Shown piece after piece: positions 3,149-59,543 of a DNA stretch of 64,000 nt. The notes beneath the pieces are model-generated. The model searched no databases, was not told where the DNA came from, and saw only the letters and a program-made list of their open reading frames with translations. Each line of letters begins with the position of its first letter. Position 1 is the stretch's first letter. Both the position numbers and the translations under genes were made by a program. Origin of the DNA: Thiotrichales bacterium (GTDB taxonomy: Bacteria > Pseudomonadota > Gammaproteobacteria > UWMA-0217); the NCBI GenBank assembly GCA_050329935.1, contig JBHJOI010000032.1:61350-125349 (forward strand). Direction: 5' to 3'.

Positions 3149-5185
3149 CTATTGGATACCAGTGTCGGTCAGGAGTGCTGTTTCCGAGGGTGGACGACCT
3201 GCAAACGCCACGAAATTCGCCATCGCCGCGCGAGAAGCGCCCGTTTCTAGAATCTCGGTTGCGAAGCGCTGACCTACGTCCGAACTAACATAGCCGTTGG
3301 TTGCGAAAAAGGAGAACGCGTCGGCGGAAAGGACCTCGGCCCATTTGTAGGAATAATATGCGCAGGCGTATCCGCCGCTGAATATATGCGTAAATGAGTT
3401 GGCGAAGCGATTATAAGCGGGTGGTGGAATCACGGCGGTTTTCGAGCGTACGGACGCGAGGATTTCTTCGAGGCGTGAACCGGTCGCCGGATCGTATTCG
3501 GCATGTAGTCGGAGATCAAACAACGCGAATTCGAGCTGCCGCATGAACTGCAGTCCGGTTTGAAATCGTTTCAGGCTACGAATTCGATCCAACAGGGTAT
3601 CAGGCATGCTTTCGCCACGCTCGACATGACTGGAGATCAGATCCAACCCGGCTCGGTGCCAACACCAGTTCTCCATCCATTGGCTAGGCAATTCAACGGC
3701 ATCCCACTCGACACCGTTGATTCCTGCGATGCTGGGATAATCAACCCGCGTCATTAAATGATGCAAGCCGTGACCAAACTCGTGAAATAGTGTTATGACC
3801 TCTTCATGACTCAGCATCGCGGGTTTCCCGGCCAAGGGCGGGGCTGCGTTACACGTGAGGTAAGCAACGGGTGTGATTGTCTCGTCGCCGATATGCATCC
3901 TGCCAACGCACACGTCCATCCAGGCACCAGAGCGTTTGCTTGGGCGCGTGTACATATCTAGATAGAACTGTCCCCGAAGCGTCCCCTTGCTATCAGTCAT
4001 TGAAAAGAATCGCACGTCTGGATGCCAGACCTCGATTTGGTTTCGTTCTTTGATGGTCACGCCGAATAGTCGCTGAATCAACGTGAACAGGCCGGAGATG
4101 ACGCGTTCCAGCGGGAAGTATTGCCTGAGTGCTTCCTGCGATATTTCCAACTTTAGTTGTTTGAACCGTTCGGTAACGAAGAGTACATCCCAGGGTTCGA
4201 GACTAAAATGAAATTCAAGCGTTTCGTGAGCAAAGTGCTCGAGGTCCGCTATTTCCAAGATCGCCCTGGGTCGTGCCTTTGATATAAAATTATCAATAAA
4301 ATCATATAGGTGTGAATATTTCTCGGCCATTTTGGTGACCAAGGAATATTCTGCGAAGTTTTCATATTCAAGAATGGTTGCCTGTTCATGGCGCAGTGCA
4401 AGTATTTCTTCGATTAGCGGTCTATTATCCCAACTTCGGTTCGCGTACTGGTCGGATGCGCGCGTGGTGTAGGCTTGATAAACGGACTCCCTCAAGCTCC
4501 GCGATTCTGCGTAGGTGAGGACGGCGATATAGATCGGAAAATCGAGCGTTATGACATATCCGCTCAAACCCCGAAGTTTCGCGGCGGCGGCTATTTGCGC
4601 AATTGCTGAATCGGGCAATCCGCGTAGCGCGTCCAGAGTGACTGAGAGCGTCCAGGATTGCGTGGCGTCGAGTACGTTGTCGGCGAAAAGAGCGGAGAGT
4701 TCCGACAGACGCTTGGCTATTTGTTTTAATCTGTGTTGCGCGTGATCGGGTAGATCAACGCCCGCCAGATGGAAGTCGCGTATTGCGTTTGTGATGAGCT
4801 TCACGCGTGGGGGCGACGCTGTCGTCATTTCTTCCGAATCGGCGAGCTTGCAGTACGCGTTGTATAGTGCGCGATTTTGAGCCATTTCGGTCGCATATTC
4901 GCTTAACTTCGGCGTACAGCGATTAAATGCCTCCCGCCAGGCATCGCTGTTTTTCACGGCGTTCAAATGGCGAATGGTTGACCACACCTTCGCCAATCGA
5001 TGCTCCATACGTTCAATAGGGTCAATCAAGCTTGACCACGTATAGTCATCTTGTTCCAGTAATACACGCACCCGATCTCGGTTCTCGGAAAGTACGTGGT
5101 CGATGGCGGGCTCGACGTGGGACGATTCGATCGAGTTGAATCGTGGCAAACAATCATCGAACAACAACGGATTTGTGGTATTCAC
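3149..5185 (-). CDS. prlC: oligopeptidase A (M3 metallopeptidase)
   Basis: 678 aa with the HEFGH zinc motif (LFHEFGHGLHH), the same length as E. coli PrlC. Confidence 0.9.
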   Translation of the reverse strand: MNTTNPLLFDDCLPRFNSIESSHVEPAIDHVLSENRDRVRVLLEQDDYTWSSLIDPIERMEHRLAKVWSTIRHLNAVKNSDAWREAFNRCTPKLSEYATEMAQNRALYNAYCKLADSEEMTTASPPRVKLITNAIRDFHLAGVDLPDHAQHRLKQIAKRLSELSALFADNVLDATQSWTLSVTLDALRGLPDSAIAQIAAAAKLRGLSGYVITLDFPIYIAVLTYAESRSLRESVYQAYTTRASDQYANRSWDNRPLIEEILALRHEQATILEYENFAEYSLVTKMAEKYSHLYDFIDNFISKARPRAILEIADLEHFAHETLEFHFSLEPWDVLFVTERFKQLKLEISQEALRQYFPLERVISGLFTLIQRLFGVTIKERNQIEVWHPDVRFFSMTDSKGTLRGQFYLDMYTRPSKRSGAWMDVCVGRMHIGDETITPVAYLTCNAAPPLAGKPAMLSHEEVITLFHEFGHGLHHLMTRVDYPSIAGINGVEWDAVELPSQWMENWCWHRAGLDLISSHVERGESMPDTLLDRIRSLKRFQTGLQFMRQLEFALFDLRLHAEYDPATGSRLEEILASVRSKTAVIPPPAYNRFANSFTHIFSGGYACAYYSYKWAEVLSADAFSFFATNGYVSSDVGQRFATEILETGASRAAMANFVAFAGRPPSETALLTDTGIQ

Positions 5186-5372
5186 CGCTCGACCAATCCT
5201 CTCATACTGTCCGCGACTCAGATAAAGCGAATATCACGTATAAGGTCTGCATACCATCAGTCACTCGTCGTTTAGCATCATCTAGTGTCACGCGAGAACT
5301 AGTGTGTTGGTTTCTACCCACGGGACGGTACGATTCGCTTTTTGCTGAATGAACGACGTGTTCCGTCATAAC

Positions 5373-7808
<2,436 letters not shown>

Positions 7809-7817
7809 TTAACCGGC

Positions 7818-8894
7818 CTAGTATATCACCTCGCTGACGCGACCTTGTTCCACGTGGAACATCTTGACGTTGCGGAACTCATCGAGCCACTCGCTTCGCT
7901 CTCTTGTACTTGTTAACAGAATCTGCGCCGGGAAAGAAGCCAAATAGCTCATAACCTGTTTAAAGCGCTCGCTGTCAAACTCCGACTCAATATCATCAAG
8001 AAGTAATACCGGCCAGTAACCTTGATCGTACGCAAATAACTTCGCCTGTGCTAATAGCCAAACAACGACCAATTGCCTCTGCTGCCCTCTAGAATTCGTA
8101 GTAGCGGGTAGGCCGTCCTGCTTTATTATTAAATCCGCTCGGTGAGGCCCAAACCGCGTGAATCCAATTTTTCGATCGCCTTCGATCTCAGCATCAAGAA
8201 GCACCCCTAGGTCTCTATCGACCGACCAGCCCTGCATAATCTCTAAAGCCGAAGATTCCCGAACGCTCATTTTATCAATAACCTCCGACATCAACGCCCC
8301 AAGCTGCCGGATGTACTCTCTCCGGATTCGCGTAATCTCCTTTGCCGAGTTCGCGAGTACCGACGACCATACCGAAATCTCACGATCCGAACCTCCGTTG
8401 CGCAGCAGCGCGTTCCTTTGACTAAGACCCCGCTTATACTCTCCCCAATAGGAGAAGAACTCCGGCTTAAAATAAAAGCAACCCCAATCGAGATGTTTCC
8501 TTCGGACTTCCGGCGGACCGGAAACTAGCCCTAACGAGCTAGGATCGAATAGAAGGGTCGGAAGTAGTCGGGACAGAAGCGATAGCTTTCGAACAGGTTC
8601 GTGGTTGTGCTTCGCAGAGATTTTCGTTACAGACCTCTCAACGCCAATCTTGTCACGCACACCATCCCGGTCAACTTCGCCAAAAACCGACATCGACTTA
8701 CAACCAAACCGGATAAGCTCCCGTTGTTGATGCGTACGAAAGGATCGAGCCCGCCCAAGGATCTCGATAGCTTCCAGAATCGTTGTTTTCCCAGAGGCAT
8801 TCGCACCGCTCAGGTAGTTAAGTCCGGGGCATAAATCCAATTCCCCTAAAACTATACGTCGAAGGTTCTCGATCCGGGTCCGGACCACGTACAT
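7818..8894 (-). CDS. recF: DNA replication and repair protein RecF
   Basis: 358 aa; Walker A GANASGKTT; conserved dnaA-dnaN-recF-gyrB order. Confidence 0.95.
   Translation of the reverse strand: MYVVRTRIENLRRIVLGELDLCPGLNYLSGANASGKTTILEAIEILGRARSFRTHQQRELIRFGCKSMSVFGEVDRDGVRDKIGVERSVTKISAKHNHEPVRKLSLLSRLLPTLLFDPSSLGLVSGPPEVRRKHLDWGCFYFKPEFFSYWGEYKRGLSQRNALLRNGGSDREISVWSSVLANSAKEITRIRREYIRQLGALMSEVIDKMSVRESSALEIMQGWSVDRDLGVLLDAEIEGDRKIGFTRFGPHRADLIIKQDGLPATTNSRGQQRQLVVVWLLAQAKLFAYDQGYWPVLLLDDIESEFDSERFKQVMSYLASFPAQILLTSTRERSEWLDEFRNVKMFHVEQGRVSEVIY
7846..7861. promoter_or_regulatory. parS centromere-like site (TGTTCCACGTGGAACA), perfect 16-bp palindrome inside the recF 3' coding end
   Basis: Exact match to the ParB-binding parS consensus of Pseudomonas-type genomes. 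The parAB genes are at 18.0-19.7 kb. Confidence 0.7.
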
Positions 8895-8906
8895 TGCTCT
8901 TGACGA

Positions 8907-10007
8907 TCAGAGCCGCATCGGCATGATCACGAAACGAGAACCGCCAGACGTCGGATCGGAAACTAGCATACTGCTGTTCGGATCTTTTAAATCTATTGTC
9001 ACTCGTTCTGACTCGATAACGTTTAGTACATCTAGAAGATATTGAACATTAAATCCAACTTCCATCGCTTCACCGTCGTAGTCAACTTCGAACGTTTCCT
9101 CGGCTTGTTCTTGTTCCGCGTTATGCGCTTCAAGTTTCGCAAGTCCGTCTGACAGATGTAATCGAACTCCGCGGTATCTCTCGTTCGACAAAATGGATAC
9201 GCGTTGCAACGCGTCCTTGAGCGCCCTCTTCTCGGTAGTAAGCCGGTGTGGGAGATCCGTAGGAATGACGCGTTCATAGTCTGGAAACCTCGCGTCAATG
9301 AGTTTCGACGTGAACTCTATCGTCGGGGTACAAATTCTTATATGTTGAGCGGTAAGTTCTAGTGTCACTTCTGCGCCGAAATCAGACGCCAAGCGCTGAA
9401 TCTCTAGGACACCTTTGCGCGGCACTATAACTTGCTGCGTCTCTACGACATCGAACTGTCCGTCAAATTGATTTATCGAAAGCCGATGTCCGTCTGTCGC
9501 AACGACGGTCAGTCGCTGTCGTTCGACTTTAATCAGCAATCCGTTTAGGTAATAGCGAACATCCTGGTTTGCCATTGCGAATGCTGTCCGTGCCAACAGC
9601 ATCAGAAAATCATGTGTACTCAGGCGAATCGCGGTTGAATCGTGCGAACTTTCTAAGATCGGAAAGTCGTTTGCCGCCAAGCAAGCCAACGAAAACCGAC
9701 TACGGCCCGCGGCAAGAGAAGCCTTACCCTCGGTAAACGAAATCGTTATGCCACTCCCTTCCGGTAACGACTTGCAAATGTCCAACAACTTTCGTCCCGG
9801 TAACAGCGCGTTGAATCGATCACCTTCAAGGTACGGAACATGGGATCGTAACATGATCTCAAGATCGGTTCCGGTCAGTGTGATGCCATTGTCCGATACC
9901 TCAAACAATACATGCGCGAGTGCTGGCATAGTGTTCCGCTTCTCGACCGCACCCATAATCTTCTGCAACCCGTCAAGCAACTGACTTCGGTCGACTTTCA
10001 CTTTCAT
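8907..10007 (-). CDS. dnaN: DNA polymerase III beta sliding clamp
   Basis: 366 aa, MKVKVDRSQLL..., typical DnaN. Confidence 0.95.
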   Translation of the reverse strand: MKVKVDRSQLLDGLQKIMGAVEKRNTMPALAHVLFEVSDNGITLTGTDLEIMLRSHVPYLEGDRFNALLPGRKLLDICKSLPEGSGITISFTEGKASLAAGRSRFSLACLAANDFPILESSHDSTAIRLSTHDFLMLLARTAFAMANQDVRYYLNGLLIKVERQRLTVVATDGHRLSINQFDGQFDVVETQQVIVPRKGVLEIQRLASDFGAEVTLELTAQHIRICTPTIEFTSKLIDARFPDYERVIPTDLPHRLTTEKRALKDALQRVSILSNERYRGVRLHLSDGLAKLEAHNAEQEQAEETFEVDYDGEAMEVGFNVQYLLDVLNVIESERVTIDLKDPNSSMLVSDPTSGGSRFVIMPMRL

Positions 10008-10263
10008 CGCATTATTCCTGCTAACCGAACCAATTATATAAAGCTACTTTATATATCTAATTACTATATTAATAAGGTCGTTGCCGCGCTGGGTATAAGC
10101 CATTTAAACCTCTATTTTTCATTCAGTTACAACTCGCAAAAGTGCGTCGATCTCTTGTTCGTAACGCATTTCGAACCGTTGTACAGTATGTGGATAAGTC
10201 ACGGATCATCTCACGCGACGCGATTATCCCTTTCTTGCCCATACCTTATCCACAGGAAAATCA
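10008..10263. other. candidate oriC (dnaA-dnaN intergenic): DnaA boxes plus an AT-rich unwinding element
   Basis: Perfect TGTGGATAA at 10181-10189 and perfect TTATCCACA at 10238-10246. Weaker boxes at about 10085 and 10215. A strongly AT-rich tract at 10019-10115 abuts the dnaN start. Confidence 0.5.
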
Positions 10264-11628
10264 TCAGTGCGAGAGCGTACGCTGGAGAATGCGGTAGTCT
10301 TCCTCGATCCGCGGATCTTCCTCGCGTAGTTGAACCACTTTCTTGCAAGCATGAAGTACCGTGGTGTGGTCGCGGCCACCAAAAAACTGACCAATCTCTG
10401 GCAAGCTATGATTGGTGAACTCCTTCGACAACGCCATCGCAATCTGTCGCGGCCGTGCAAGCGAACGGCTTCGCCGATTCGAGAGCAAATCGCTCAACCG
10501 AATTTTGTAGTACTCCGCGACCGTACGCTGGATGTTCTCGACGCTCACTAGCCGCTCTTGCAATGCCAACACGTCCCGCAGCGCTTCTTTCGCGAACTCG
10601 AGATCAATTGACTGTCCGGTCAAACGAGCATTCGCGACAACGCGCCGAAGCGCGCCCTCGAGTTCTCGTACGTTTGAACGGATTCGCTTGGCGATGAAAA
10701 AAGCAACCTCTGAGGGCAAATCGAACTGATTCTCATCTGCTTTCTTTTGAAGAATTGCTACTCTCGTCTCGAGCTCAGGAGGCTCTATCGCAACCGTAAG
10801 ACCCCAACCAAAACGCGACTTTAGGCGCTCCTCCAATCCATCGACCTCCTTGGGATAGCGATCCGAGGTAAGTATGACCTGTTGTTGACCTTCGAGTAGC
10901 GCGTTAAACGTGTGAAAAAACTCCTCCTGCGAACGTTCCTTGCCGGCGAAGAACTGGATGTCGTCGATCAACAGTGCATTTAGTGATCGATAGTGACGCT
11001 TGAAGCGATCGATCGCATTGTGTTGAAGTGCCTTGATCATATCTTGGACGAACCGTTCGGAATGGAGGTAAACCACCTTGGCTTGCGGGTTTCTCTCGAG
11101 TATTTGGTTACCTACCGCGTGCATCAAGTGCGTTTTCCCGAGACCCACGCCACCATAGATGAACAGGGGGTTGTAAGCCTTTCCAACCGAGTCCGCGACT
11201 TGTTGAGCCGCTGCGCGCGCGAGTTGGTTCGATTTCCCCTGGACGAAATTGGAGAAATGGAACGCCGCGTTGAGATTGTTCGAAAAACCGCTACTCATGG
11301 GCGCGCTTTCTATCCGTCCGCTAGCACTCGCCTCGCGCTGGTCATATGTGAGCTTTGGCGGATTACTGGTTGTTGTGCTCGTCGCAGGCGGGGAACCGAT
11401 CTCCAAAACCGCACGGTAAGCTGCGTCTCCAGTGATTTCGAGCAGCAGCTCCCCTATCCTGTGTAGGTAGTGCTCTCTTACCCAATCGAGTACAAACCGG
11501 TTCGGCGCGAATAGCCGAATCAAGCGCTTATCGATGATCGGCTGCAAGGGACGAATCCAAGTATTGATTTCCTGGTCACTCAACTCGCTTTCGAGCAGCC
11601 GTGCACAATGCTGCCAGAGTGTACTCAT
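10264..11628 (-). CDS. dnaA: chromosomal replication initiator DnaA
   Basis: 454 aa; AAA+ Walker [11 protein letters not shown]; C-terminal DNA-binding domain. Confidence 0.97.
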
Positions 11629-11732
11629 AGATTTCGTTTGGATTGCGACAAGGCTTCAGAATCCGTCACTATACACAACAAGTTGCGACCTCGCGACGGG
11701 AGACAATCACGGCTTGAACTCATACTAGCCGA

Positions 11733-11760
11733 TTGACAAACGTCGATCGTGGCGTTAACT
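11733..11760 (+). promoter_or_regulatory. sigma70-like promoter for rpmH-rnpA (TTGACA-16-TTAACT)
   Basis: TTGACA at 11733-11738 and TTAACT at 11755-11760. A DnaA-box-like CTATACACA (8/9) lies upstream at 11669-11677. Confidence 0.5.
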
Positions 11761-12393: not shown

Positions 12394-14085
12394 ATGGAAA
12401 ATCAGCGCACATTTCTCTACCTATCCCTGCTGTTCGTTGGATTCTTGCTGTGGCAGGCATGGAGTAGCGATCAGGCCCAACGTAATCTTCCGCCCATTCA
12501 AAGCACACCCTCCTCGGCGCCGAGTGCGACTGCCCTCGTTGATCCGGTCGATGTCCCGGTTGATACGCCGACGCCAAGCACCGCACCTGACGCCTCAGCA
12601 GTGCCGCAACCTCACGAGACTACCGGTACATCATCCGCAAGTATTGTTTCGGTCGTGACGGATGTTTTCCAAATCGGTATCAGCACTCGCGGTGGCGATA
12701 TCGTCGAACTTAAACTGCCCACGTACCCTGTTAGTCTCGCGCAGCCCGACAAGCCGTTGGTACTGTATCGAACACAGCCATTTCGCTATCTGCTTCAATC
12801 GGGTTTGATCGCCGAAGCAGCGGATTCGAGCGCCGAGCGCGCACCTAGCCACCATTCGGAATTCGAACCGCTCGCACCGCGTTACGAATTAGCCCCGAGC
12901 GAAAGCGAACTGCGCGTTCCGCTGCGTTGGCGTTCCGCGGACGGACTCGAAGTCGATAAGATCTATACGTTTCGCCGCGGTAGCTTCCTAATCGATATCA
13001 GCTACGAGATTAGAAACAACTCCAACGCGGCATGGCAGGGACGCCATTACCGCCAGTTGCGACATGGCCCAGTCGATACCTCGGGCGATAACAAGCTGCT
13101 CTATACCTATACTGGTGCCGCCTACTACACCGACAAATACGAAAAGTTGCCATTCGACGATCTCGCGAAAAAGCCGGTCTCGTTTGATCTGACGGGCGGT
13201 TGGGCCGCGATGACCCAGCACTATTTCCTCAGTGCGCTGTTGCCGAGCAGTCAAAATGAAATCAACCAGTTGTATACGAAAGTCGCGCGCACAGGTAGCG
13301 TTGACGAGTATATGATTGGTTTGCTGTCGCCGAATATCAGCATAGCGCCCGGCGAACAAACTCGAATTCTCGCTCAGGTCTACGCAGGACCAAAGCTGCA
13401 AAAGGACCTTGAAGCACTGGCACCTGGTCTTGACCTCACGGCAGACTACGGAATCTTCGCGTTCATTGCCAAGCCGCTGTTTTGGTTGTTGAATTGGCTA
13501 CATAGTTGGCTGCACAACTGGGGTTGGGCGATCATCGCGCTAACGTTCCTGATTAAGCTCGTATTTTATAAGCCATCGGAGATGAGTTACCGCTCGATGG
13601 CCAAGATGCGTGCGGTCGCGCCGAAACTACAGCAAATCAAGGAGCGCTATGGCGATGATAAGCAACGCCAGCAGCAAGCATTGATGGAGTTGTACAAGAA
13701 GGAAAAAATCAATCCTCTTGGTGGTTGCCTTCCTATCCTGATTCAGATCCCCGTATTCATCGCGCTCTACTGGGTACTGCTTGAAACCGTGGAGTTGCGG
13801 CAGGCGCCCTGGATGTTGTGGATCAAGGACTTGTCTCTTCGCGATCCCTATTTCATCTTGCCGGTGTTGATGGGCATCACGATGTTTATCCAGCAAAAGC
13901 TCAATCCAGCCCCGCCTGATCCGATTCAGGCCAAGATCATGATGGCGTTGCCGTTCGTGTTTACCGTGTTCTTTGCCTTTTTCCCCGCAGGACTGGTGCT
14001 CTACTGGTTTGTCAATAATCTGCTCTCAATTGCGCAGCAGGGGTGGATCACATCACAGATCGAGAAATCGACCACCAAAGCCTGA
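12394..14085 (+). CDS. yidC: membrane protein insertase YidC
   Basis: 563 aa; N-terminal TM, periplasmic domain, conserved C-terminal 5-TM core. Confidence 0.95.
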
Positions 14086-15434
14086 GTCCCGGACAACGCG
14101 CGCCTAGCGATACGATCGCCGCGCTCGCGACGCCTCCTGGTCGCGGCGGCATCGGCGTGGTACGGGTTTCAGGCCCGCTCGCCGCGAAGATTGCCGAAGC
14201 GGTAATCGGAAACCTGCCGCGTGCTCGCCATGCCTGCTACGTACCTTTTCGTGACGGCGACGGCACGCCTTTGGACCAAGGCATCGCGCTGTACTTTGTC
14301 GCGCCAAATTCGTTTACTGGCGAAGACGTTCTCGAACTCCAGGCTCATGGCGGGCCGGTCGTGCTCGATTTGTTGCTGCAACGCTGCCTGGAATGTGGCG
14401 CGCGCTTGGCGCGACCAGGTGAATTCAGCGAACGCGCCTTTCTCAACGACAAGCTCGATCTCACCCAAGCAGAAGCCATCGCTGACTTGATCGAGAGCAC
14501 CACCGCGCAAGCGGCACGGAGCGCGTTGCGTTCGCTTCGCGGCGCATTCTCCGAGGCGGTGGAGACGCTACAGGGCCAGTTGATAGATCTTCGGGTGTAC
14601 GTCGAGGCGGCGCTCGATTTTCCTGACGAAGAGATCGACTTTCTGGCGGATGTTGAACTGCGCGATCGTGTGGCGCAGGTCGTTCAGCGAGTCGATCAGG
14701 TCGCGCTCAGAGCACAACAGGGTAGTCTGTTGCGCGAAGGCCTGCATCTCGTGATCGCGGGATTGCCTAACGCGGGTAAATCGAGCCTGCTGAACGCGTT
14801 GTCGGGGACCGAAACGGCGATCGTGACCGAACTAGCCGGCACGACGCGCGACGTGCTCCGCGAGCGGATTCAGGTGCGTGGCATTCCGGTTCATGTGATC
14901 GATACCGCCGGCTTGCGCGATAGTAGCGATCCCATCGAGCGCATCGGCATCGAACGCGCGTGGCACGAGATCGAGCGTGCCGACCTCGTCCTCCATCTCA
15001 TCGACGCGACGCGCGGGTTCACGCCGGAGGACGCGGACATTCGACGCCGTCTACCGCCTCGCGTCGCGGTACTCGAGGTGTACAACAAGATCGACCTGAC
15101 GGGAGATCCACCGGGTGTCGACGGGAATCGAATCCACATCGCGGTACGCGAGGGTCTCGGGATCGAAGCTTTGCGCGAGGCCTTGCTCGCGAAGGTTGGA
15201 TACCATGTCGAGGTTGAAGATAGTTTCATGGCGCGACGTCGTCATCTGGACGCGCTTGAACAAGCCCGCGCCGCGGTACTCAAGGCACAGGAATTGCTCG
15301 TGACGACCCGCGCGGGTGAACTGGTCGCCGAGGAGCTTCGGCTCGCGCTCGATGCCTTGGGCAGCATCACGGGTCGATTTACGACCGATGATCTGTTGGA
15401 GCGCGTATTCAGCAGCTTCTGCATCGGCAAGTAG
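14043..15434 (+). CDS. mnmE: tRNA modification GTPase MnmE (TrmE)
   Basis: ...[20 protein letters not shown]..., G-domain [13 protein letters not shown]-terminal CIGK. GTG start overlapping the yidC 3' end by 43 bp. Confidence 0.9.
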
Positions 15435-15531: not shown

Positions 15532-17406
15532 ATGCGCTACCCAGAAACCTTCGAATTACTAGTGATTGGCGGCGGCCACGCGGGAACCGAAGCGGCCTTG
15601 GCGGCCGCCCGCATGGGTATCAAAACGTTGTTGCTAACGCACAACATAGAAACTCTGGGTCAGATGAGCTGCAACCCGGCGATAGGCGGCATCGGCAAGG
15701 GTCACCTCGTCAAGGAGATCGACGCGCTGGGCGGCGCCATGGCCTTGGCGGCGGACCAGGCCGGCATCCAGTTCCGCATTCTAAACCGACGCAAGGGACC
15801 GGCCGTACGCGCAACGCGCGCCCAGGCGGATCGCCAGCTCTACAAGGCCGCGATCCGAGGGATGCTTGAAAATCAGCCGAACCTAACCTTGTTTCAGCAG
15901 GCGGTGGATGACCTGTTGTTGGACGGTGAGCGCGTGGTGGGTGTGCGTACGCAGATGGGCCTTGAATTCCGGGCTCCGACCGTCGTACTCACGGTAGGCA
16001 CGTTTCTCGGCGGTAAGATTCATATCGGCGAAAGTCACTATCGCGGCGGCCGCGCGGGCGATCAAGCCGCGCTTACTCTAGCCGAGAAGCTCCGCGAGTT
16101 GCCGTTGCGGGTCGCACGCCTCAAGACCGGCACACCGCCTCGACTCGATGCCCGTAGCATCGACTTCAGCAAGCTGGAGCCACAACCCGGTGATGCGCCC
16201 GTTCCGGTTTTCTCCTACCGCGGCAAGGCCTCGGATCATCCGCATCAAGTGCTGTGCCATATCACGCACAGCAATGAGGCGACCCACGAGATCATTCGCG
16301 GCGGTTTGCATCGTTCGCCGTTGTACAGTGGTCAAATCGAGGGCGTAGGTCCACGTTACTGTCCGTCAATCGAAGACAAGGTGGTGCGCTTTGCCGACAA
16401 GAGCGGGCATCAAATATTCCTCGAACCCGAAGGGCTGAATACGCACGAGATCTACCCCAATGGTATCTCCACGAGTCTCCCCTTCGACATACAACTCGCA
16501 CTGGTGCGGTCCATTTGCGGGCTCGAGAACGCCCATATCACTCGCCCGGGGTATGCGATCGAGTACGACTATTTCGATCCGCGCGACCTGAAGCCTTCGC
16601 TGGAGACCCGCGCGATCAGAGGACTGTTTTTCGCCGGTCAGATCAACGGCACCACCGGTTACGAGGAAGCCGCGGCGCAAGGACTGCTCGCTGGGATCAA
16701 CGCCGCGCTGGCCGTTCGGGGCGACGATGCCTGGACCCCGCTGCGCCACGAGGCCTATCTCGCGGTTTTGGTCGACGATCTGTTGACTCAGGGCACACTG
16801 GAACCCTACCGGATGTTCACGAGTCGCGCCGAGCATCGACTACTCCTGCGCGAAGACAACGCCGACCTTCGACTCACCGAGATCGGCCACCAATTGGGCG
16901 TCGTCGGTGAACCCCAGTGGCGCGAGTTTTCCATTAAACGCGACGCGATCGCGCGCGAACGCGAACGTTTGCGCGATACCTGGATTCACCCCGGTCGGGT
17001 TTCCGAGCGCGAAGCACGCGACGTACTCGGCACGTCGCTACCGCGCGAATACACACTTGAGGAACTGCTGCGGCGTCCCGAGCTCGACTATTCGACGCTG
17101 ATGCGGCTGGAAGCCGCTGGGCCGGGCGTCCAACGCGACGACGTAGCTGAACAAGTCGAGACGCAGGTCAAGTACGAGGGTTACATCGAGCGTCAGCTCG
17201 AAGACGTTGCCAGGACGCGTGCCCAGGAGACAACCTGTTTGCCCGACGACCTCGACTACGACAACGTCATCGGCTTGTCGCACGAAGTCCTGCAAAAGCT
17301 ACGACGGCATCGTCCGGCGACGCTCGGACAGGCGTCGCGGATCCCGGGCATCACGCCAGCGGCGATCTCACTGTTGTTGATTCATCTAAAGAAGCGCCGC
17401 GCGTGA
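15532..17406 (+). CDS. mnmG: tRNA uridine 5-carboxymethylaminomethyl modification enzyme MnmG (GidA)
   Basis: 624 aa; FAD-binding [12 protein letters not shown]. Confidence 0.95.
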
Positions 17407-34161: not shown

Positions 34162-34219
34162 CTCGGCGGATTGGTTGTAATATTACTATATAGTAAAATA
34201 CATAATGAGGGTTTCGCCT

Positions 34220-56483: not shown

Positions 56484-59384
56484 CTACGCTCCCGATTTCT
56501 TACCGAACTTGCCGGCGATGTAGGCTTGCCACTTCCCGCGCCGCCGCTCCATCCCCGGAAAGGATGGCAGCGGATTGAACTGAGGCCAGCTTTGCTTGGG
56601 TTCGTCCGCCTCGGCTTTGTAAACGCGCACGCGTACGTCGTACCAGCCCGCTTGACCCGTCACCGGATCGGAGTTCGAGATCGTCATGCCTTCGACGCCC
56701 GTGGGCAGCTCCTCGGTAATGATGTGGTTCAACAGAAATCCCTTTTGCGACTCATTGGCTTTCGGATGTAATGCCCATGCCCCGGACGCCTTGCCGATCG
56801 CATTCCAGGTCCACACCGTGCCGGGTTCGACCGCTTCGCTGAACATGCACATGCAGCGGACTTTGCCCCAGGGCGATTCAACCCAGACCCAGTCGCTTTC
56901 CTTGAAGCCATTGGCCTTGCCGAGCAGCGGATTCAGGTAAAGGTAGTTATGGGTATGGATCTGCCGCAGCCATGCGTTCTGCGAATCCCACGAGTGATAC
57001 ATCGCCATTGGGCGCTGGGTGATCGCATTGAGCGGGTACTTCTGCGTATCGATGCGCTGCGACTCGAGTGGCTCGTGATAAAAGGGCAGCGGATCGAAAT
57101 AGGTGCGCACACGCTCGCGCAGGCGTTGCGGCGGCTGGCGTCCATCCGATTTGCCCTCGGCCGCGAGTCGAAACTTCTGCAACACCTCGGAGTAGATGTG
57201 GATGTTGATGGGCTCGGCATAGCGAGTCATGCCGTGGTCCTGAGCCCATTGCAGGTAGCCCTGGTTCCAGTTGCGCATGTATTGGAACGATCGCGGCAAC
57301 TCGTAATGGAATACGCAGTTGTTATTGGCATACATTTCCCACTGGCGCGGATTGGGCTCCCCGCGCAGGAATTTCTCGCCGCCCTTGCCGCGCCACCCGG
57401 CCAGAAAACCAATTCCGGATCCTGGCGCACTCTCGTAGTTGATAATGAAGTCGCGATAATCCCGAAACTTTCGCGAGCCGTCGGCTTGGGTAAACGCCGG
57501 CAGTTGCAGTCGCGTACCGAGTTCGATCATTACCTCCTGAAACGGTTTGCACTCACCCTTCGGCGGGACGACAGGGATTCGCACCGAATCGACCGGCCCG
57601 TCGTACTCTGAGATCGGGCGATCGAGCATCGACATGACATCGTGGCGTTCGAGATAGGTCGTGTCGGGCAACACCAGATCGGCGAACGCGACCGTCTCCG
57701 ACTGGAAGGTGTCGCATACCACGAGAAACGGAATCCGGTATTCGCCGGCCTCATCCTTGTCGGTCAACATCTCGCGCACGCGCGCGGTGTTCATCGAAGA
57801 GTTCCAGGCCATATTGGCCATGAACAACAGCAAGGTGTCGATCCGATAGGGATCGCCGCGCCATGCGTTGGTGATCGCATTGTGCATCAGGCCGTGCACC
57901 GACAGCGGGTATTCCCACGAAAACGCCTTGTCGATCCGCAACGGTTCGCCGTCCTCACTGACGAACAGGTCATCCGGATCCGCCGGCCAGCCCAGTGGCA
58001 TCCCATTCAAAATCTCACCGGGGACTACGTCCGCTTCGCTCCTTGGCGGCTTCGGGCAGGGCGGAATCGGGCGCGGAAACGGTGCCTTGTGGCGAAAACC
58101 GCCCGGCCGATCGATCGTGCCAAGCAGGGTCATCAGGATGCCGAGTGCCCGGATCGTGTGAAAGCCATTGGAGTGTGCGGCCAACCCGCGCATCGCGTGA
58201 AACGCGACCGGATTGCCGATCACCGAGTTGTGTTCCTTGCCCCAGGCATCGGTCCACGCAATCGGCAGCTCGATCTGCTGATCTCTTGCGGTCACGCCCA
58301 TTTCGTGCGCCAAGCGTCGAATCGTTTCGGCCGGAATTCCGGTGATTCCCGCCGCCCACTCGGGCGTGTATTGCTCAACACGCTCCTTCAGCAGTTGGAA
58401 CGACGGTTTGACCGGTGTGCCGTCATCCCAACGGAATTCGCCGAGCAGATAGGGGTCGGCACCCTCGGTGTGGGTCGAAATGGGACGGTTCAGCTCGCGG
58501 TCCCACCACAACTTGTTCTGCGGGTCGAAGCAACCCTCCTCGGGGGGGATCTCGAAGCGCAAGAACATGCCGAACTCGCTACTCTTGGGGTCGAGATTCA
58601 CCAACTCGGGGGCGTTGGTGTAACGCACCAGGTAGTCGCGATCGTAAAGGCCCTGCTTGATGATCTCGTGAATCATCGCCAGCAACAGCGCGCCGTCGGT
58701 GCCCGGCTTTATCGGCACCCATTCATCGGCGATCGCCGAATAGCCGGTTCGCACCGGGTTGATCGAGATGAACCGTCCGCCCTGGCGTTTGAATTTTGAG
58801 ATTTGCACCTTGAGCGGATTCGAGTGATGGTCCTCGGCGGTGCCGAACATCAATAACAACTTGGCGCGTTCGAGATCCGGGCCGCCGAATTCCCAGAACG
58901 AACCGCCGATCGTGTAGATGAGACCCGCGGCCATGTTGACCGAGCAGAATCCGCCATGCGCCGCATAGTTCGGCGTCCCGAACTGGCGCGCGAATAGCCC
59001 GGTCAACGCCTGCATCTGATCGCGGCCCGTGAAAAGCGCGAAGCGCTTCGGATCCGTTGCGCGAATCTTGCCGAGTCGTTCCGCCAACAGCGAAAACGCC
59101 TCGTCCCAGCTCACGGCCTCAAATTCGCCACTGCCACGCTCCGCGCCGGGTTTACGCCGTAACGGCCGCGTCAGGCGTGCCGGCGAATACTGCTTCATGA
59201 TCCCGGAAGCGCCCTTCGCGCAAATAACGCCTTGGTTCAGAGGATGATTCGGGTTCCCCTCGATATAGCGGACCTCGCCGTTCTCCAGCGTTACCCTGAT
59301 GCCGCAACGGCACGCGCACATATAACATGTGGTGGTTTTGACTTCGCGGCTCGGGGCTTGAACGGATTCCGGCTGGGCGTTCAT
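56484..59384 (-). CDS. soeA: molybdopterin (bis-MGD) oxidoreductase catalytic subunit without a Tat signal; best fit sulfite dehydrogenase SoeA
   Basis: 966 aa; N-terminal FeS motif CYMCACRCG...C; no twin-arginine leader. Subunit sizes of about 108, 27 and 36 kDa and the A-B-C order match the cytoplasm-facing SoeABC. Confidence 0.6.
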   Translation of the reverse strand: MNAQPESVQAPSREVKTTTCYMCACRCGIRVTLENGEVRYIEGNPNHPLNQGVICAKGASGIMKQYSPARLTRPLRRKPGAERGSGEFEAVSWDEAFSLLAERLGKIRATDPKRFALFTGRDQMQALTGLFARQFGTPNYAAHGGFCSVNMAAGLIYTIGGSFWEFGGPDLERAKLLLMFGTAEDHHSNPLKVQISKFKRQGGRFISINPVRTGYSAIADEWVPIKPGTDGALLLAMIHEIIKQGLYDRDYLVRYTNAPELVNLDPKSSEFGMFLRFEIPPEEGCFDPQNKLWWDRELNRPISTHTEGADPYLLGEFRWDDGTPVKPSFQLLKERVEQYTPEWAAGITGIPAETIRRLAHEMGVTARDQQIELPIAWTDAWGKEHNSVIGNPVAFHAMRGLAAHSNGFHTIRALGILMTLLGTIDRPGGFRHKAPFPRPIPPCPKPPRSEADVVPGEILNGMPLGWPADPDDLFVSEDGEPLRIDKAFSWEYPLSVHGLMHNAITNAWRGDPYRIDTLLLFMANMAWNSSMNTARVREMLTDKDEAGEYRIPFLVVCDTFQSETVAFADLVLPDTTYLERHDVMSMLDRPISEYDGPVDSVRIPVVPPKGECKPFQEVMIELGTRLQLPAFTQADGSRKFRDYRDFIINYESAPGSGIGFLAGWRGKGGEKFLRGEPNPRQWEMYANNNCVFHYELPRSFQYMRNWNQGYLQWAQDHGMTRYAEPINIHIYSEVLQKFRLAAEGKSDGRQPPQRLRERVRTYFDPLPFYHEPLESQRIDTQKYPLNAITQRPMAMYHSWDSQNAWLRQIHTHNYLYLNPLLGKANGFKESDWVWVESPWGKVRCMCMFSEAVEPGTVWTWNAIGKASGAWALHPKANESQKGFLLNHIITEELPTGVEGMTISNSDPVTGQAGWYDVRVRVYKAEADEPKQSWPQFNPLPSFPGMERRRGKWQAYIAGKFGKKSGA

Positions 59385-59543
59385 GAGGCGGATTAGTACA
59401 TTAGTAAGTAGCGATAAAGCCTAAGGTACTCCCGTTGCGGTGTCGGGCGGAAATACTTTCTGCTTATTCAAGGATAACTAGAATTTATCCAGATAATTTT
59501 TGTTTATGAGAAAGTGGTTGATCCGATTGGGCGTTGGGCAATC

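What the first reader, a model, noticed from the sequence alone, without database searches (positions are those of the whole stretch)
10008..10263. Probable oriC lies between dnaA and dnaN, not between rpmH and dnaA
The 256-bp dnaA-dnaN spacer has two perfect consensus DnaA boxes in inverted orientation, TGTGGATAA at 10181-10189 and TTATCCACA at 10238-10246. There are at least two weaker boxes (TTATCCctt at about 10215, TGgGtATAA at about 10085). A strongly AT-rich tract at 10019-10115, immediately upstream of dnaN, looks like a DNA-unwinding element. The rpmH-dnaA spacer has only one near-consensus box (CTATACACA, 11669-11677), as expected for dnaA autoregulation. The mnmE-mnmG spacer is only 97 bp. 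Among gammaproteobacteria, Pseudomonas uses rpmH-dnaA and enterics use mnmG-mioC. A dnaA-dnaN origin is the Xanthomonas/Firmicute-like arrangement.
Basis: partly seen in the sequence, partly recalled or inferred. Interest (0 to 1): 0.5.

Follow-up and report, generated by a model that had tools for sequence, protein, structure and literature searches.

The report
Chromosome origin between dnaA and dnaN
The 256-bp gap between dnaA and dnaN in this uncultured sulfur-oxidising gammaproteobacterium has the sequence parts of a chromosomal replication origin, in an arrangement already known from Xanthomonas and predicted for Thioalkalivibrio, so it is a sound but ordinary call.

Summary
The dnaA-dnaN spacer (10008-10263) holds the only two perfect DnaA boxes in 64 kb, at 10189-10197 and 10246-10254. 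It also holds the most AT-rich and most easily unwound tract of the window (10028-10079).

The layout matches a known origin plan: unwinding element, three DnaA-trio-like triplets, a 14-bp GC spacer, a weak origin-proximal box (10090-10098), and an IHF-like site in the same 21-nt register as E. coli oriC. A perfect box follows, then an 11-bp-phased three-box array facing the other way.

About 40% of 112 sampled gammaproteobacterial dnaA loci share this layout (long dnaA-dnaN spacer, short rpmH-dnaA spacer). A profile built only from them finds its best match in the window here (z = 7.4). Two closer relatives (DnaA 89% and 81% identical) and Thioalkalivibrio sulfidiphilus keep one or more of these elements although synonymous sites are saturated.

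The rpmH-dnaA spacer has one conserved box and no unwinding element. The mnmE-mnmG spacer has none. GC skew over 82 kb is weak and does not localise the origin: its minimum is near 21.2 kb.

Verdict: probable oriC, a new member of a known kind, low novelty, untested experimentally.

The parts
10008..10263 (.). dnaA-dnaN intergenic spacer (256 bp), the predicted oriC as a whole
   Evidence: ORF bounds and Pfam calls for DnaA and the beta clamp. Highest DnaA-box density in 64 kb and in 82 kb.
10028..10079 (.). DNA-unwinding element (DUE), 84% AT core, containing a small AT palindrome TATATAAAG/CTTTATATA at 10035-10055
   Evidence: SIDD-like calculation: G(x) falls from 3.6 kcal/mol at sigma -0.04 to about 0 at -0.055. 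It is the only strong site in the 2.5-kb segment and the lowest of all sites in the 64-kb scan, at 0.10. Method checked on E. coli oriC. Palindrome.
10067..10075 (+). DnaA-trio-like triplets. The + strand reads 5'-TAT TAA TAA-3', which is 3'-AAT AAT TAT-5' read away from the box.
   Evidence: Sequence. Meets the published rule of at least 3 NAN triplets within 16 bp of a box (PMC8287927). The GACCTTATT junction is identical in the 89% relative and CTTAT is invariant in all 4 aligned genomes.
10076..10089 (.). 14-bp GC-rich spacer GGTCGTTGCCGCGC between the triplets and the proximal box
   Evidence: The same 14-nt gap recurs in the other spacers of this layout. E. coli has 13 bp at the same place.
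10090..10098 (-). DUE-proximal, R1-type low-affinity DnaA box. It reads TTATACCCA on the - strand and TGGGTATAA on the + strand.
   Evidence: Two mismatches to TTATCCACA, one to TGTGNAWAA. CTTATACC is shared collinearly with T. sulfidiphilus. It is weaker in the 89% relative (TTATTGGCA).
10117..10129 (+). IHF-like site TTTCATTCAGTTA, with its conserved C at 10120
   Evidence: Two mismatches to WATCARNNNNTTR, the same count as E. coli's own oriC IHF site. Exactly 21 nt lie between the box end and the conserved C in both. TAA..aTTG is conserved in that register in the 36-locus consensus. TGAAAAATA is identical in the 89% relative.
10189..10197 (-). Perfect DnaA box (TGTGGATAA on the + strand)
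   Evidence: TTATCCACAT is identical in the 89% relative and TGACTTATCCACA is identical in T. sulfidiphilus.
10224..10254 (+). Array of three same-orientation boxes at 11-bp phasing: TTATCCCTT (10224), TTGCCCATA (10235) and the perfect TTATCCACA (10246). It faces the opposite way to the other boxes.
   Evidence: Chance of such a phased trio is about 9e-4. Phased pairs at the dnaA-proximal end recur in other loci of this layout. CCTGTGGATAA is identical in the 89% relative.
8907..10007 (-). dnaN (beta clamp), transcribed away from the DUE
10264..11628 (-). dnaA (initiator)
11669..11677 (+). Single DnaA-box-like site CTATACACA in the 185-bp rpmH-dnaA spacer. It is context only, probably dnaA autoregulation, and is not part of the origin.
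   Evidence: TTGTGTATA is invariant in the window and in the 89% and 81% relatives. No unwinding site lies there.

Best explanation
The 256-bp dnaA-dnaN spacer is the chromosomal replication origin (oriC) of this MAG, which NCBI labels 'Thiotrichales bacterium' and which came from a stromatolite metagenome.

Inferred mechanism, by analogy with E. coli and the Bacillus basal unwinding system:
1. DnaA sits permanently on the two perfect boxes (10189-10197 and 10246-10254).
2. ATP-DnaA then fills the weaker neighbours. These are the 11-bp-phased array 10224-10254 facing one way, and the sites towards the weak proximal box 10090-10098 facing the other way.
3. An IHF-type bend at 10117-10129 brings the DnaA oligomer onto the adjacent 14-bp GC spacer and the AAT-AAT-TAT triplets.
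4. The AT-rich element 10028-10079 melts under negative supercoiling, the helicase is loaded, and forks leave in both directions.

dnaN is transcribed away from the element. The lone conserved box upstream of dnaA most likely autoregulates dnaA.

Shown here: the presence, statistical non-randomness, predicted unwinding propensity, architecture and evolutionary conservation of the elements. Inferred: DnaA and IHF binding, the order of events, and that replication actually starts here.
For: - The only two perfect boxes in 64 kb are here (shuffle expectation 0.20). Box density is top in 64 kb and in 82 kb.
- A SIDD-like model gives one dominant, supercoil-dependent open site at 10028-10079, the strongest in the window. 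The same model finds the E. coli oriC AT-cluster/13-mer region. Equivalent sites appear in the dnaN-proximal half of the spacer in three relatives.
- All five criteria of Weigel's published prediction scheme are met (for the criteria; for the data). The minimal basal-unwinding-system rule is met: box with at most 2 mismatches, 14-bp spacer, 3 NAN triplets.
- The spacer-box-21 nt-IHF register is identical to E. coli oriC.
- 47 of 112 sampled loci share the layout, with median spacers of 222 bp (dnaA-dnaN) and 212 bp (rpmH-dnaA). The window has 256 and 185 bp.
- An 87-column profile built from 36 other genomes scores 49 bits (z = 7.4) at 10046-10132. The next independent locus scores 17.7 bits.
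- Against the 89% relative, third codon positions are only 43-47% identical. Even so, CCTGTGGATAA, TTATCCACAT, TGAAAAATA and GACCTTATT are identical and collinear. In total 7 exact blocks of at least 8 nt are shared, against 1.2 in shuffles, with 0 of 1000 shuffles reaching 7.
- T. sulfidiphilus shares 5 exact blocks (p about 0.001). An origin was independently predicted in its 251-bp dnaA-dnaN spacer.
- Papers on Xanthomonas place oriC between dnaA and dnaN (citing Yen et al. 2002).
Against: - GC skew does not point here. Over 82 kb the cumulative G-C minimum is at about 21.2 kb. The stretch from -4.3 to +5.6 kb on the dnaN side has positive skew, where negative is expected. Flank means are -0.0004 on the left and +0.017 on the right.
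- The DUE-proximal box is weak (2 mismatches) and drifts in the closest relatives.
- The 81% relative shares only one exact block of at least 8 nt with the window's spacer, no more than shuffles give. Its dnaA-proximal box has 2 mismatches.
- The NAN-triplet rule is permissive in AT-rich DNA.
- Overall spacer identity to the 89% relative (66%) is no higher than for other intergenic regions (63-76%). Only the motif islands stand out.
- The AT-rich tract lies just upstream of dnaN, so it could double as promoter or leader DNA.
- The SIDD calculation is my own re-implementation, with parameters recalled from Benham's model. It is not the published program.
- There are no experimental data for this organism.
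Confidence: 0.8

Rival explanations
1. The spacer is only a DnaA-controlled regulatory region for dnaN (promoter, leader, DnaA-box operator or titration site). Replication starts somewhere outside the 82 kb examined.
For: - GC skew neither peaks nor switches cleanly at 10.1 kb.
- One sigma-70-like match (TGGATA-18-GATAAT) overlaps the boxes on the dnaN-sense strand. No terminator separates dnaA from dnaN.
- The AT-rich tract is immediately upstream of the dnaN ribosome-binding site.
- DnaA boxes are known transcriptional operators (established knowledge; see also PMC13438810).
Against: - A plain promoter does not explain the conserved composite module of DUE, triplets, fixed 14-bp spacer, box, and IHF-like site in a 21-nt register. 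That module is found across 36 other genomes and in E. coli oriC.
- It does not explain the oppositely oriented phased box array.
- The promoter scan found fewer hits than shuffles did (1 against 2.1).
- No other box cluster or box-associated unwinding site exists in 82 kb.
- Genomes with origins elsewhere have dnaA-dnaN spacers of only about 38 bp.
Confidence: 0.1
2. The origin is bipartite, as in Bacillus subtilis or Helicobacter pylori. The dnaA-dnaN spacer carries the unwinding half and the rpmH-dnaA spacer supplies a second DnaA-binding half that loops over dnaA.
For: - A DnaA-box-like site (TTGTGTATA) is invariant in the rpmH-dnaA spacer of the window and of the 89% and 81% relatives.
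- Many loci of this layout keep exactly one perfect box there.
- At 256 bp the spacer sits at the length below which the published scheme asks for this check.
Against: - Only one box is present (2 mismatches to TTATCCACA), not a cluster.
- A single box about 40 bp upstream of the dnaA start is the classical autoregulation layout (established knowledge for E. coli dnaA).
- There is no AT-rich or unwinding site there.
- The dnaA-dnaN spacer already contains a complete set of elements.
Confidence: 0.07
3. The boxes and the AT tract are a chance co-occurrence with no function.
For: None beyond the general permissiveness of the relaxed-box and NAN-triplet definitions.
Against: - Two perfect boxes against 0.20 expected in 64 kb.
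- Motif islands conserved against saturated synonymous sites.
- Profile match at z = 7.4.
Confidence: 0.01

Closest known systems
Predicted oriC of Thioalkalivibrio sulfidiphilus HL-EbGr7 (Weigel 2025, bioRxiv 10.1101/2025.08.05.668638)
   Same: - Identical gene order from parB to gyrB.
- Spacer lengths are 71, 193 and 251 bp (upstream of mnmG, rpmH-dnaA, dnaA-dnaN). The window has 97, 185 and 256 bp.
- The origin is assigned to the dnaA-dnaN spacer.
- Collinear shared blocks TGACTTATCCACA and CTTATACC.
- A destabilised site lies in the dnaN-proximal half of the spacer.
   Different: - DnaA is only 71% identical.
- The dnaA-proximal box is TGTGGACAA there and perfect here.
- The T. sulfidiphilus triplets are a cleaner AAT AAT GAT.
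- Both are predictions, not experiments.
Xanthomonas campestris oriC in the dnaA-dnaN intergenic region (Yen et al. 2002, AEM 68:2924; cited in PMC8453159)
   Same: - Location between dnaA and dnaN in a gammaproteobacterium.
- Lysobacterales loci in my sample have 211-279-bp spacers, a reverse and forward box pair next to dnaA, a further box next to an AT-rich tract, and a short rpmH-dnaA spacer.
   Different: - In Lysobacterales the last box is followed after about 5 bp by TAC/CAC-type triplets. Here there is a 14-bp GC spacer followed by TTA/ATA triplets.
- I could not read the 2002 paper. Its autonomous-replication result is taken from my own knowledge and from the citation.
Escherichia coli oriC (mnmG-mioC)
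   Same: - Order: DUE, then a 13/14-bp GC-rich spacer, then a reverse-oriented box.
- 21 nt lie between the box and the conserved C of an IHF site. Both IHF sites have 2 mismatches to the consensus.
- The far-end high-affinity box is in opposite orientation, with 11-bp-phased weak sites, as at R4/C1/I3 (established knowledge; data).
   Different: - Different chromosomal location.
- No GATC-rich 13-mer repeats: the spacer has only 2 GATC and one weak 13-mer match outside the DUE. It is therefore not a Dam/SeqA-type origin.
- The proximal box is weak here, whereas R1 is high-affinity in E. coli.
Bacillus subtilis incC / basal unwinding system (Richardson 2016; PMC6669920; PMC8287927)
   Same: - dnaA-dnaN location.
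- A box followed within 16 bp by at least 3 NAN triplets on the strand where the box reads TGTGGATAA, then AT-rich DNA.
   Different: - B. subtilis is bipartite, with box clusters upstream of dnaA, and uses DnaD/DnaB.
- Its triplets are closer to GAT. Here they are AAT AAT TAT, and only one box lies upstream of dnaA.
Pseudomonas oriC1 (rpmH-dnaA) and oriC2 (upstream of mnmG/gidA)
   Same: Same conserved gene neighbourhood, from parB to gyrB.
   Different: - Pseudomonas-type loci have rpmH-dnaA spacers of about 570 bp with 4-5 perfect boxes, and dnaA-dnaN spacers of about 39 bp.
- The window has 185 bp with one relaxed box, 256 bp between dnaA and dnaN, and only 97 box-free bp upstream of mnmG.

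Membership tests
DnaA-dependent oriC, prediction criteria of Weigel 2025 (sect. 2.2.12) | One DNA-unwinding element detected as a superhelicity-dependent SIDD signal | tested here: met
   At 10028-10079, G falls from 3.6 to 0 kcal/mol between sigma -0.04 and -0.055 (0.01 M salt). At 0.1 M and sigma -0.06 the signal is weak, at 3.3. It is the strongest site in 64 kb. This is my own re-implementation, validated on E. coli oriC.
DnaA-dependent oriC, prediction criteria of Weigel 2025 (sect. 2.2.12) | DUE flanked within about 2 helical turns by a reverse-oriented consensus box TGTGNAWAA (1 mismatch allowed) | tested here: met
   TGGGTATAA at 10090-10098 has 1 mismatch to TGTGNAWAA. It lies 11 bp from the DUE edge. 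Caveat: the box drifts in the closest relatives.
DnaA-dependent oriC, prediction criteria of Weigel 2025 (sect. 2.2.12) | Gene on the DUE side transcribed away from the origin | tested here: met
   dnaN at 8907-10007 is on the - strand.
DnaA-dependent oriC, prediction criteria of Weigel 2025 (sect. 2.2.12) | [quoted passage not shown] | tested here: met
   Boxes at 10189 (perfect), 10224, 10235 and 10246 (perfect). Phasing p is about 9e-4.
DnaA-dependent oriC, prediction criteria of Weigel 2025 (sect. 2.2.12) | DnaA-trio motifs between the DUE and the proximal box (optional criterion) | tested here: met
   3'-AAT AAT TAT-5' at 10067-10075. The rule is permissive.
DnaA-dependent oriC (general) | Lies at or near the cumulative GC-skew minimum of the replicon | tested here: inconclusive
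   Only 82 kb of a 189-kb contig were reachable. The minimum is at about 21.2 kb, 11 kb away. That is inside the 0-20 kb range the scheme calls usual, but the left flank is not negative.
DnaA-dependent oriC (general) | DnaA binding, DnaA-dependent unwinding, autonomous replication, marker-frequency peak | not testable with these tools
   Needs experiments or read mapping of SRR3310977.
Basal unwinding system (Pelliciari 2021, PMC8287927) | Box with at most 2 mismatches, spacer of at most 16 bp, at least 3 consecutive NAN triplets on the strand where the box reads TGTGGATAA | tested here: met
   Box with 2 mismatches, 14-bp spacer (13 is the most common published length), 3 triplets.
Gammaproteobacterial dnaA-dnaN origin layout (Xanthomonas / Thioalkalivibrio type) | Long dnaA-dnaN spacer (about 185-280 bp) with boxes and an AT-rich tract, together with a short rpmH-dnaA spacer | tested here: met
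   The window has 256 and 185 bp. The medians for this layout are 222 and 212 bp over 47 loci.
Gammaproteobacterial dnaA-dnaN origin layout (Xanthomonas / Thioalkalivibrio type) | Composite module of IHF-like site, 21 nt, forward box, about 14 nt, then AT triplets, about 65-80 bp before dnaN | tested here: met
   A profile from 36 other loci gives its best hit in the window at 10046-10132 (49 bits, z = 7.4).
E. coli-type (Dam/SeqA) oriC | GATC-rich origin with three GATCTNTTNTTTT 13-mers, located between mnmG and mioC | tested here: not met
   The spacer has 2 GATC and no 13-mer in the DUE. The spacer upstream of mnmG is 97 bp with no boxes.
Pseudomonas-type oriC1 | rpmH-dnaA spacer of at least 400 bp with several boxes and a DUE | tested here: not met
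   185 bp, one relaxed box, no unwinding site.
Bipartite origin (B. subtilis / H. pylori type) | Second cluster of DnaA boxes on the other side of dnaA | tested here: not met
   A single box-like site at 11669-11677.

The most novel reading that the evidence does not exclude
The spacer may be a fully conserved DnaA-binding and unwinding module that is not the place, or not the only place, where this chromosome starts replicating. On that reading, the positive-skew patch on the dnaN side and the skew minimum near 21 kb would reflect initiation elsewhere. The dnaA-dnaN element would then act as a retired or auxiliary origin and a dnaN/DnaA regulatory site.
Probability: 0.07. Interest if true: 0.5.

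Novelty: new member of a known kind. Interest (0 to 1): 0.2.

Why it matters
It gives a defensible origin annotation for an uncultured sulfur-oxidising gammaproteobacterium from a stromatolite. That annotation is useful for orienting the assembly, for replichore analyses, and for growth-rate estimates from read depth.

The comparison also shows that the dnaA-dnaN arrangement is not a Xanthomonas peculiarity. It is about as common as the Pseudomonas/enteric layout among the sampled gammaproteobacterial dnaA loci. It carries the same DUE, spacer, box and IHF register as E. coli oriC.

None of this overturns current understanding. Origins at dnaA-dnaN are the commonest bacterial arrangement and have already been predicted for a related genus.

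Tried and rejected
- **Collection scans.** The closest relatives (89% and 81%) came only from the protein search.
- **GC skew.** I tried the window alone, the window plus 9.5 kb, and the window plus 18.3 kb of left flank, and also per-gene and third-position skew. The signal is weak, confounded by gene strand and codon bias, and shows no clean switch. I treat it as inconclusive rather than as evidence either way.
- **Contig walking.** Walking further along the contig was blocked for proteins not encoded in the window. One homology search bought 8.8 kb, and I stopped there.
- **Promoters and terminators.** The scan found one weak promoter-like hit overlapping the boxes and no terminator. This is not informative.
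- **E. coli-type features.** 13-mers and GATC clustering are absent.
- **tRNA genes.** None near the region.
- **Trio strand.** I first read the TAA/TAG repeats as trios on the strand that carries TTATCCACA. The supplementary table of PMC8287927 shows that trios lie on the complementary strand. On the correct strand the window has AAT AAT TAT.
- **Unreadable papers.** Yen 2002 and Mackiewicz 2004 could not be opened.
- **Box near 59.5 kb.** I suspected a DnaA box upstream of nrdA. The gene is a molybdopterin oxidoreductase.
Full report
**Source and gene map**

The window is part of a metagenome-assembled genome. The DnaA protein is found verbatim on NCBI contig CAZTIU010000001.1 (GCA_964613875.1, 189 kb) and on a stromatolite metagenome contig from run SRR3310977. 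NCBI labels the MAG 'Thiotrichales bacterium'.

- On the - strand lie gyrB (5373-7790), recF (7818-8894), dnaN (8907-10007) and dnaA (10264-11628).
- On the + strand lie rpmH (from 11814), rnpA, yidC, mnmE, mnmG (15532-17406), rsmG, parA and parB (to 19716), followed by the atp operon.

**Checking the observation**

The spacer bounds 10008-10263 (256 bp) are exact. The two perfect DnaA boxes exist, but at 10189-10197 (TGTGGATAA on the + strand) and 10246-10254 (TTATCCACA). Both are 8 bp to the right of the quoted positions.

The weaker sites are at 10224-10232 (TTATCCCTT) and 10090-10098 (TGGGTATAA). The quoted AT tract 10019-10115 is 67% AT. Its core, 10027-10075, is 84% AT in a window that averages 43%. 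CTATACACA at 11669-11677 and the 97-bp mnmE-mnmG spacer are as stated.

The signal is well beyond chance:
- The two perfect boxes are the only ones in 64 kb, where shuffles expect 0.20 and never reach 2.
- They form a 10-nt perfect inverted repeat.
- The spacer ranks first in the window for box density and for AT content at 40, 60 and 100 bp. It also ranks first for box density across the 82 kb I could assemble.

**Anatomy**

Read on the + strand, from dnaN towards dnaA, the spacer contains the following:
1. An AT-rich element at 10028-10079.
2. Three triplets, TAT TAA TAA, at 10067-10075. Read 3' to 5' away from the box they are AAT AAT TAT.
3. A 14-bp GC-rich spacer at 10076-10089.
4. A weak reverse-oriented box, TGGGTATAA, at 10090-10098.
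5. Exactly 21 nt further on, the C of an IHF-like site, TTTCATTCAGTTA (10117-10129).
6. A perfect reverse box at 10189-10197.
7. Three forward boxes at 11-bp phasing (10224, 10235 and the perfect 10246), facing the opposite way.

The chance of such a phased trio next to one of the perfect boxes is about 9e-4.

**Unwinding propensity**

No SIDD program was available, so I re-implemented Benham's stress-induced duplex destabilisation model. It allows up to 3-4 open runs, uses AT/GC opening energies, and takes its parameters from my recollection of the published model.

I checked it on E. coli MG1655 oriC. There the strongest internal site falls on the AT-cluster and the left 13-mers.

On a 2.5-kb segment centred on the spacer there is one dominant site, 10028-10079. 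Its opening energy falls from 3.6 kcal/mol at sigma -0.04 to about 0 at -0.055. Under a stricter salt setting it still gives a 'weak' signal of 3.3. In a tiled scan of all 64 kb it is the most destabilised site (0.10 kcal/mol). The next sites, at 4275-4323 and 34170-34210, have no DnaA boxes. The same model places the main destabilised zone in the dnaN-proximal half of the spacer in three relatives.

**Comparison across genomes**

I collected 160 dnaA loci from genome and metagenome collections. For each I located dnaA, dnaN and rpmH by tblastn. Among the 112 loci with at least 50% DnaA identity and both spacers measurable, two layouts dominate:
- 48 loci have a short dnaA-dnaN spacer (median 38 bp) and a long, box-rich, AT-rich rpmH-dnaA spacer (median 577 bp). 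These include enterics, Pseudomonas, Halomonas and Shewanella.
- 47 loci have a long dnaA-dnaN spacer (median 222 bp) with boxes and an AT-rich tract, and a short rpmH-dnaA spacer (median 212 bp). These include Lysobacterales/Xanthomonadales, Chromatiaceae, Sedimenticolaceae, Wenzhouxiangella and many MAGs.

The window (256 and 185 bp) belongs to the second group.

I anchored 36 such spacers on the last forward box before the AT tract. This reveals a shared module: TAA..aTTG (an IHF-like half-site pattern), 21 nt, a TTATCCACA-like box followed by G, 13 further non-conserved and comparatively GC-rich positions, TAATAA-type triplets, AT-rich DNA, and then dnaN about 65-80 bp later.

A profile built from those 36 sequences, with the window excluded, gives its best score in the whole window, on either strand, at 10046-10132 (49 bits, z = 7.4). 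The next independent locus scores 17.7 bits. The anchoring rule selected for a box followed by AT-rich DNA, so those two features are partly built into the profile. The IHF-like pattern, the G after the box and the triplets were not selected for.

**Close relatives**

A protein search found DnaA homologues at 89% and 81% identity on 150-212-kb MAG contigs with the same gene order. It also found Thioalkalivibrio sulfidiphilus at 71%. Their dnaA-dnaN spacers are 247, 314 and 251 bp.

Between the window and the 89% relative, third codon positions of dnaA and dnaN are only 43-47% identical, so neutral sites are saturated. Overall spacer identity is 66%, no higher than other intergenic regions (63-76%).

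The predicted elements nevertheless survive as exact, collinear blocks: CCTGTGGATAA, TTATCCACAT, TGAAAAATA and GACCTTATT. In all, 7 exact blocks of at least 8 nt are shared, against 1.2 in shuffles, and 0 of 1000 shuffles reach 7.

T. sulfidiphilus shares TGACTTATCCACA and CTTATACC, 5 blocks in total (p about 0.001). The 81% relative shares only the central TTATCCACA as an exact block, which is no more than chance. Its dnaA-proximal box is degenerate.

The weak proximal box itself drifts: TTATACCCA here, TTATTGGCA in the 89% relative and TTTTCCGCA in the 81% relative. This is a caveat for its assignment.

**The other candidate spacers**

The rpmH-dnaA spacer is 185 bp. It has one box-like site and no destabilised site. 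That site (TTGTGTATA in the dnaA-sense strand) and a TTGTCAATCG block are invariant across the three close genomes. This fits promoter elements and dnaA autoregulation rather than a second origin half. The mnmE-mnmG spacer (97 bp) and the parB-atp spacer have no boxes with two or fewer mismatches.

**GC skew**

I added 18.3 kb of left flank. Cumulative G-C over 82 kb has its minimum at about 21.2 kb, 11 kb from the spacer.

The stretch from 6.4 to 21.2 kb is negative, and everything to the right of it is positive. A patch from -4.3 to +5.6 kb on the dnaN side is also positive. Further left the skew is near zero. Mean skew is -0.0004 left of the spacer and +0.017 right of it.

Per-gene third-position skew is dominated by gene-specific effects. 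[quoted passage not shown] I therefore score skew as inconclusive. It is the main item on the 'against' side.

**Comparison with the literature**

The published rule for the basal unwinding system requires a box with at most 2 mismatches, a spacer of at most 16 bp (13 is the commonest), and at least three NAN triplets on the strand written 3'-AATAGGTGT...GAT-5' (PMC8287927). The window meets it with 2 mismatches, 14 bp and AAT AAT TAT. The rule is permissive.

Weigel's five criteria for a predicted oriC are a DUE, a reverse box next to it, the flanking gene transcribed away, a contiguous box array, and trios. All five are met. The same preprint predicts oriC in the 251-bp dnaA-dnaN spacer of T. 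sulfidiphilus. That genome's mnmG-upstream and rpmH-dnaA spacers are 71 and 193 bp, essentially the window's layout.

E. coli oriC, read from the record, has a 13-bp GC spacer before R1 and 21 nt between R1 and the conserved C of its IHF site. That IHF site has the same two mismatches to the consensus as the window's. Unlike E. coli, the window has no GATC-rich 13-mers.

Xanthomonas oriC is placed between dnaA and dnaN by papers citing Yen et al. 2002. I could not open that paper. That it demonstrated autonomous replication rests on my own knowledge.

**Conclusion**

The dnaA-dnaN spacer is very probably oriC (confidence about 0.8). It would work by the standard DnaA mechanism described under the best explanation. 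The sequence architecture, unwinding propensity and conservation are shown here. Protein binding, the order of events and actual initiation are inferred.

This is a new member of a known and common kind. Interest is low, apart from the modest point that this layout is about as frequent as the Pseudomonas/enteric one among the sampled gammaproteobacteria, and that it carries the E. coli-like DUE, box and IHF register.

Noticed in passing
window 59457-59514: AT-rich intergenic stretch upstream of a molybdopterin oxidoreductase gene (56484-59384, - strand). It carries a one-mismatch DnaA-like box, TTATCCAGA, at 59485-59493 and a moderate predicted unwinding site (G = 1.4). It is probably just a promoter.
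   Followed up: partly
window 4275-4323 and 34170-34210: The second and third strongest predicted duplex-destabilised sites in the window. The first lies inside the M3 peptidase gene (3149-5185). The second lies at the divergent junction of an M23 peptidase gene and an ArsR-family regulator gene. Neither has DnaA boxes.
   Followed up: partly
window about 4000-11000: GC content drops to about 50% across the M3 peptidase, gyrB, recF, dnaN and dnaA genes, against 57-63% in most of the rest of the window.
   Followed up: no
window -4300 to +5600 (left extension from L163/L166 plus the window start): An unexplained patch of positive GC skew on the dnaN side of the putative origin, regardless of gene strand. 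It is bordered by a negative stretch at 6.4-21.2 kb.
   Followed up: partly
window 5303-8329: The ENA stromatolite contig differs from the window at 9 positions. All lie within the gyrB-recF region, including the spacer just downstream of gyrB, and there are none elsewhere in the 10.9 kb compared. This suggests strain-level variation or consensus differences between the two assemblies.
   Followed up: no
window 11725-11740 and 11669-11677: Two invariant blocks in the rpmH-dnaA spacer across the window and the 89% and 81% relatives. One is TTGTCAATCG, which reads TTGACA on the + strand and is likely the rpmH -35 element. The other is the DnaA-box-like TTGTGTATA.
   Followed up: partly
window 14043-15434: The longest mnmE ORF (GTG start, 463 aa) overlaps the end of yidC by 43 nt. 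MnmE is 446-447 aa in the two close relatives, so the true start is probably about 45 nt downstream.
   Followed up: no
L166 11597-15429 (left of the window): Genes for flavocytochrome c sulfide dehydrogenase, a c-type cytochrome, SoxY and SoxZ mark the organism as a sulfur oxidiser. This fits its nearest named relatives: Thioalkalivibrio, Thiohalobacter and Ectothiorhodospira.
   Followed up: no
loci L085, L088, L096, L097, L110 (dnaA-dnaN spacers): A subgroup of metagenome loci shares a further near-identical block, TTCCAATATTTATTAACAGGTGGAA, immediately before the dnaN start. It includes a relaxed box, TTATTAACA. The window lacks it.
   Followed up: no
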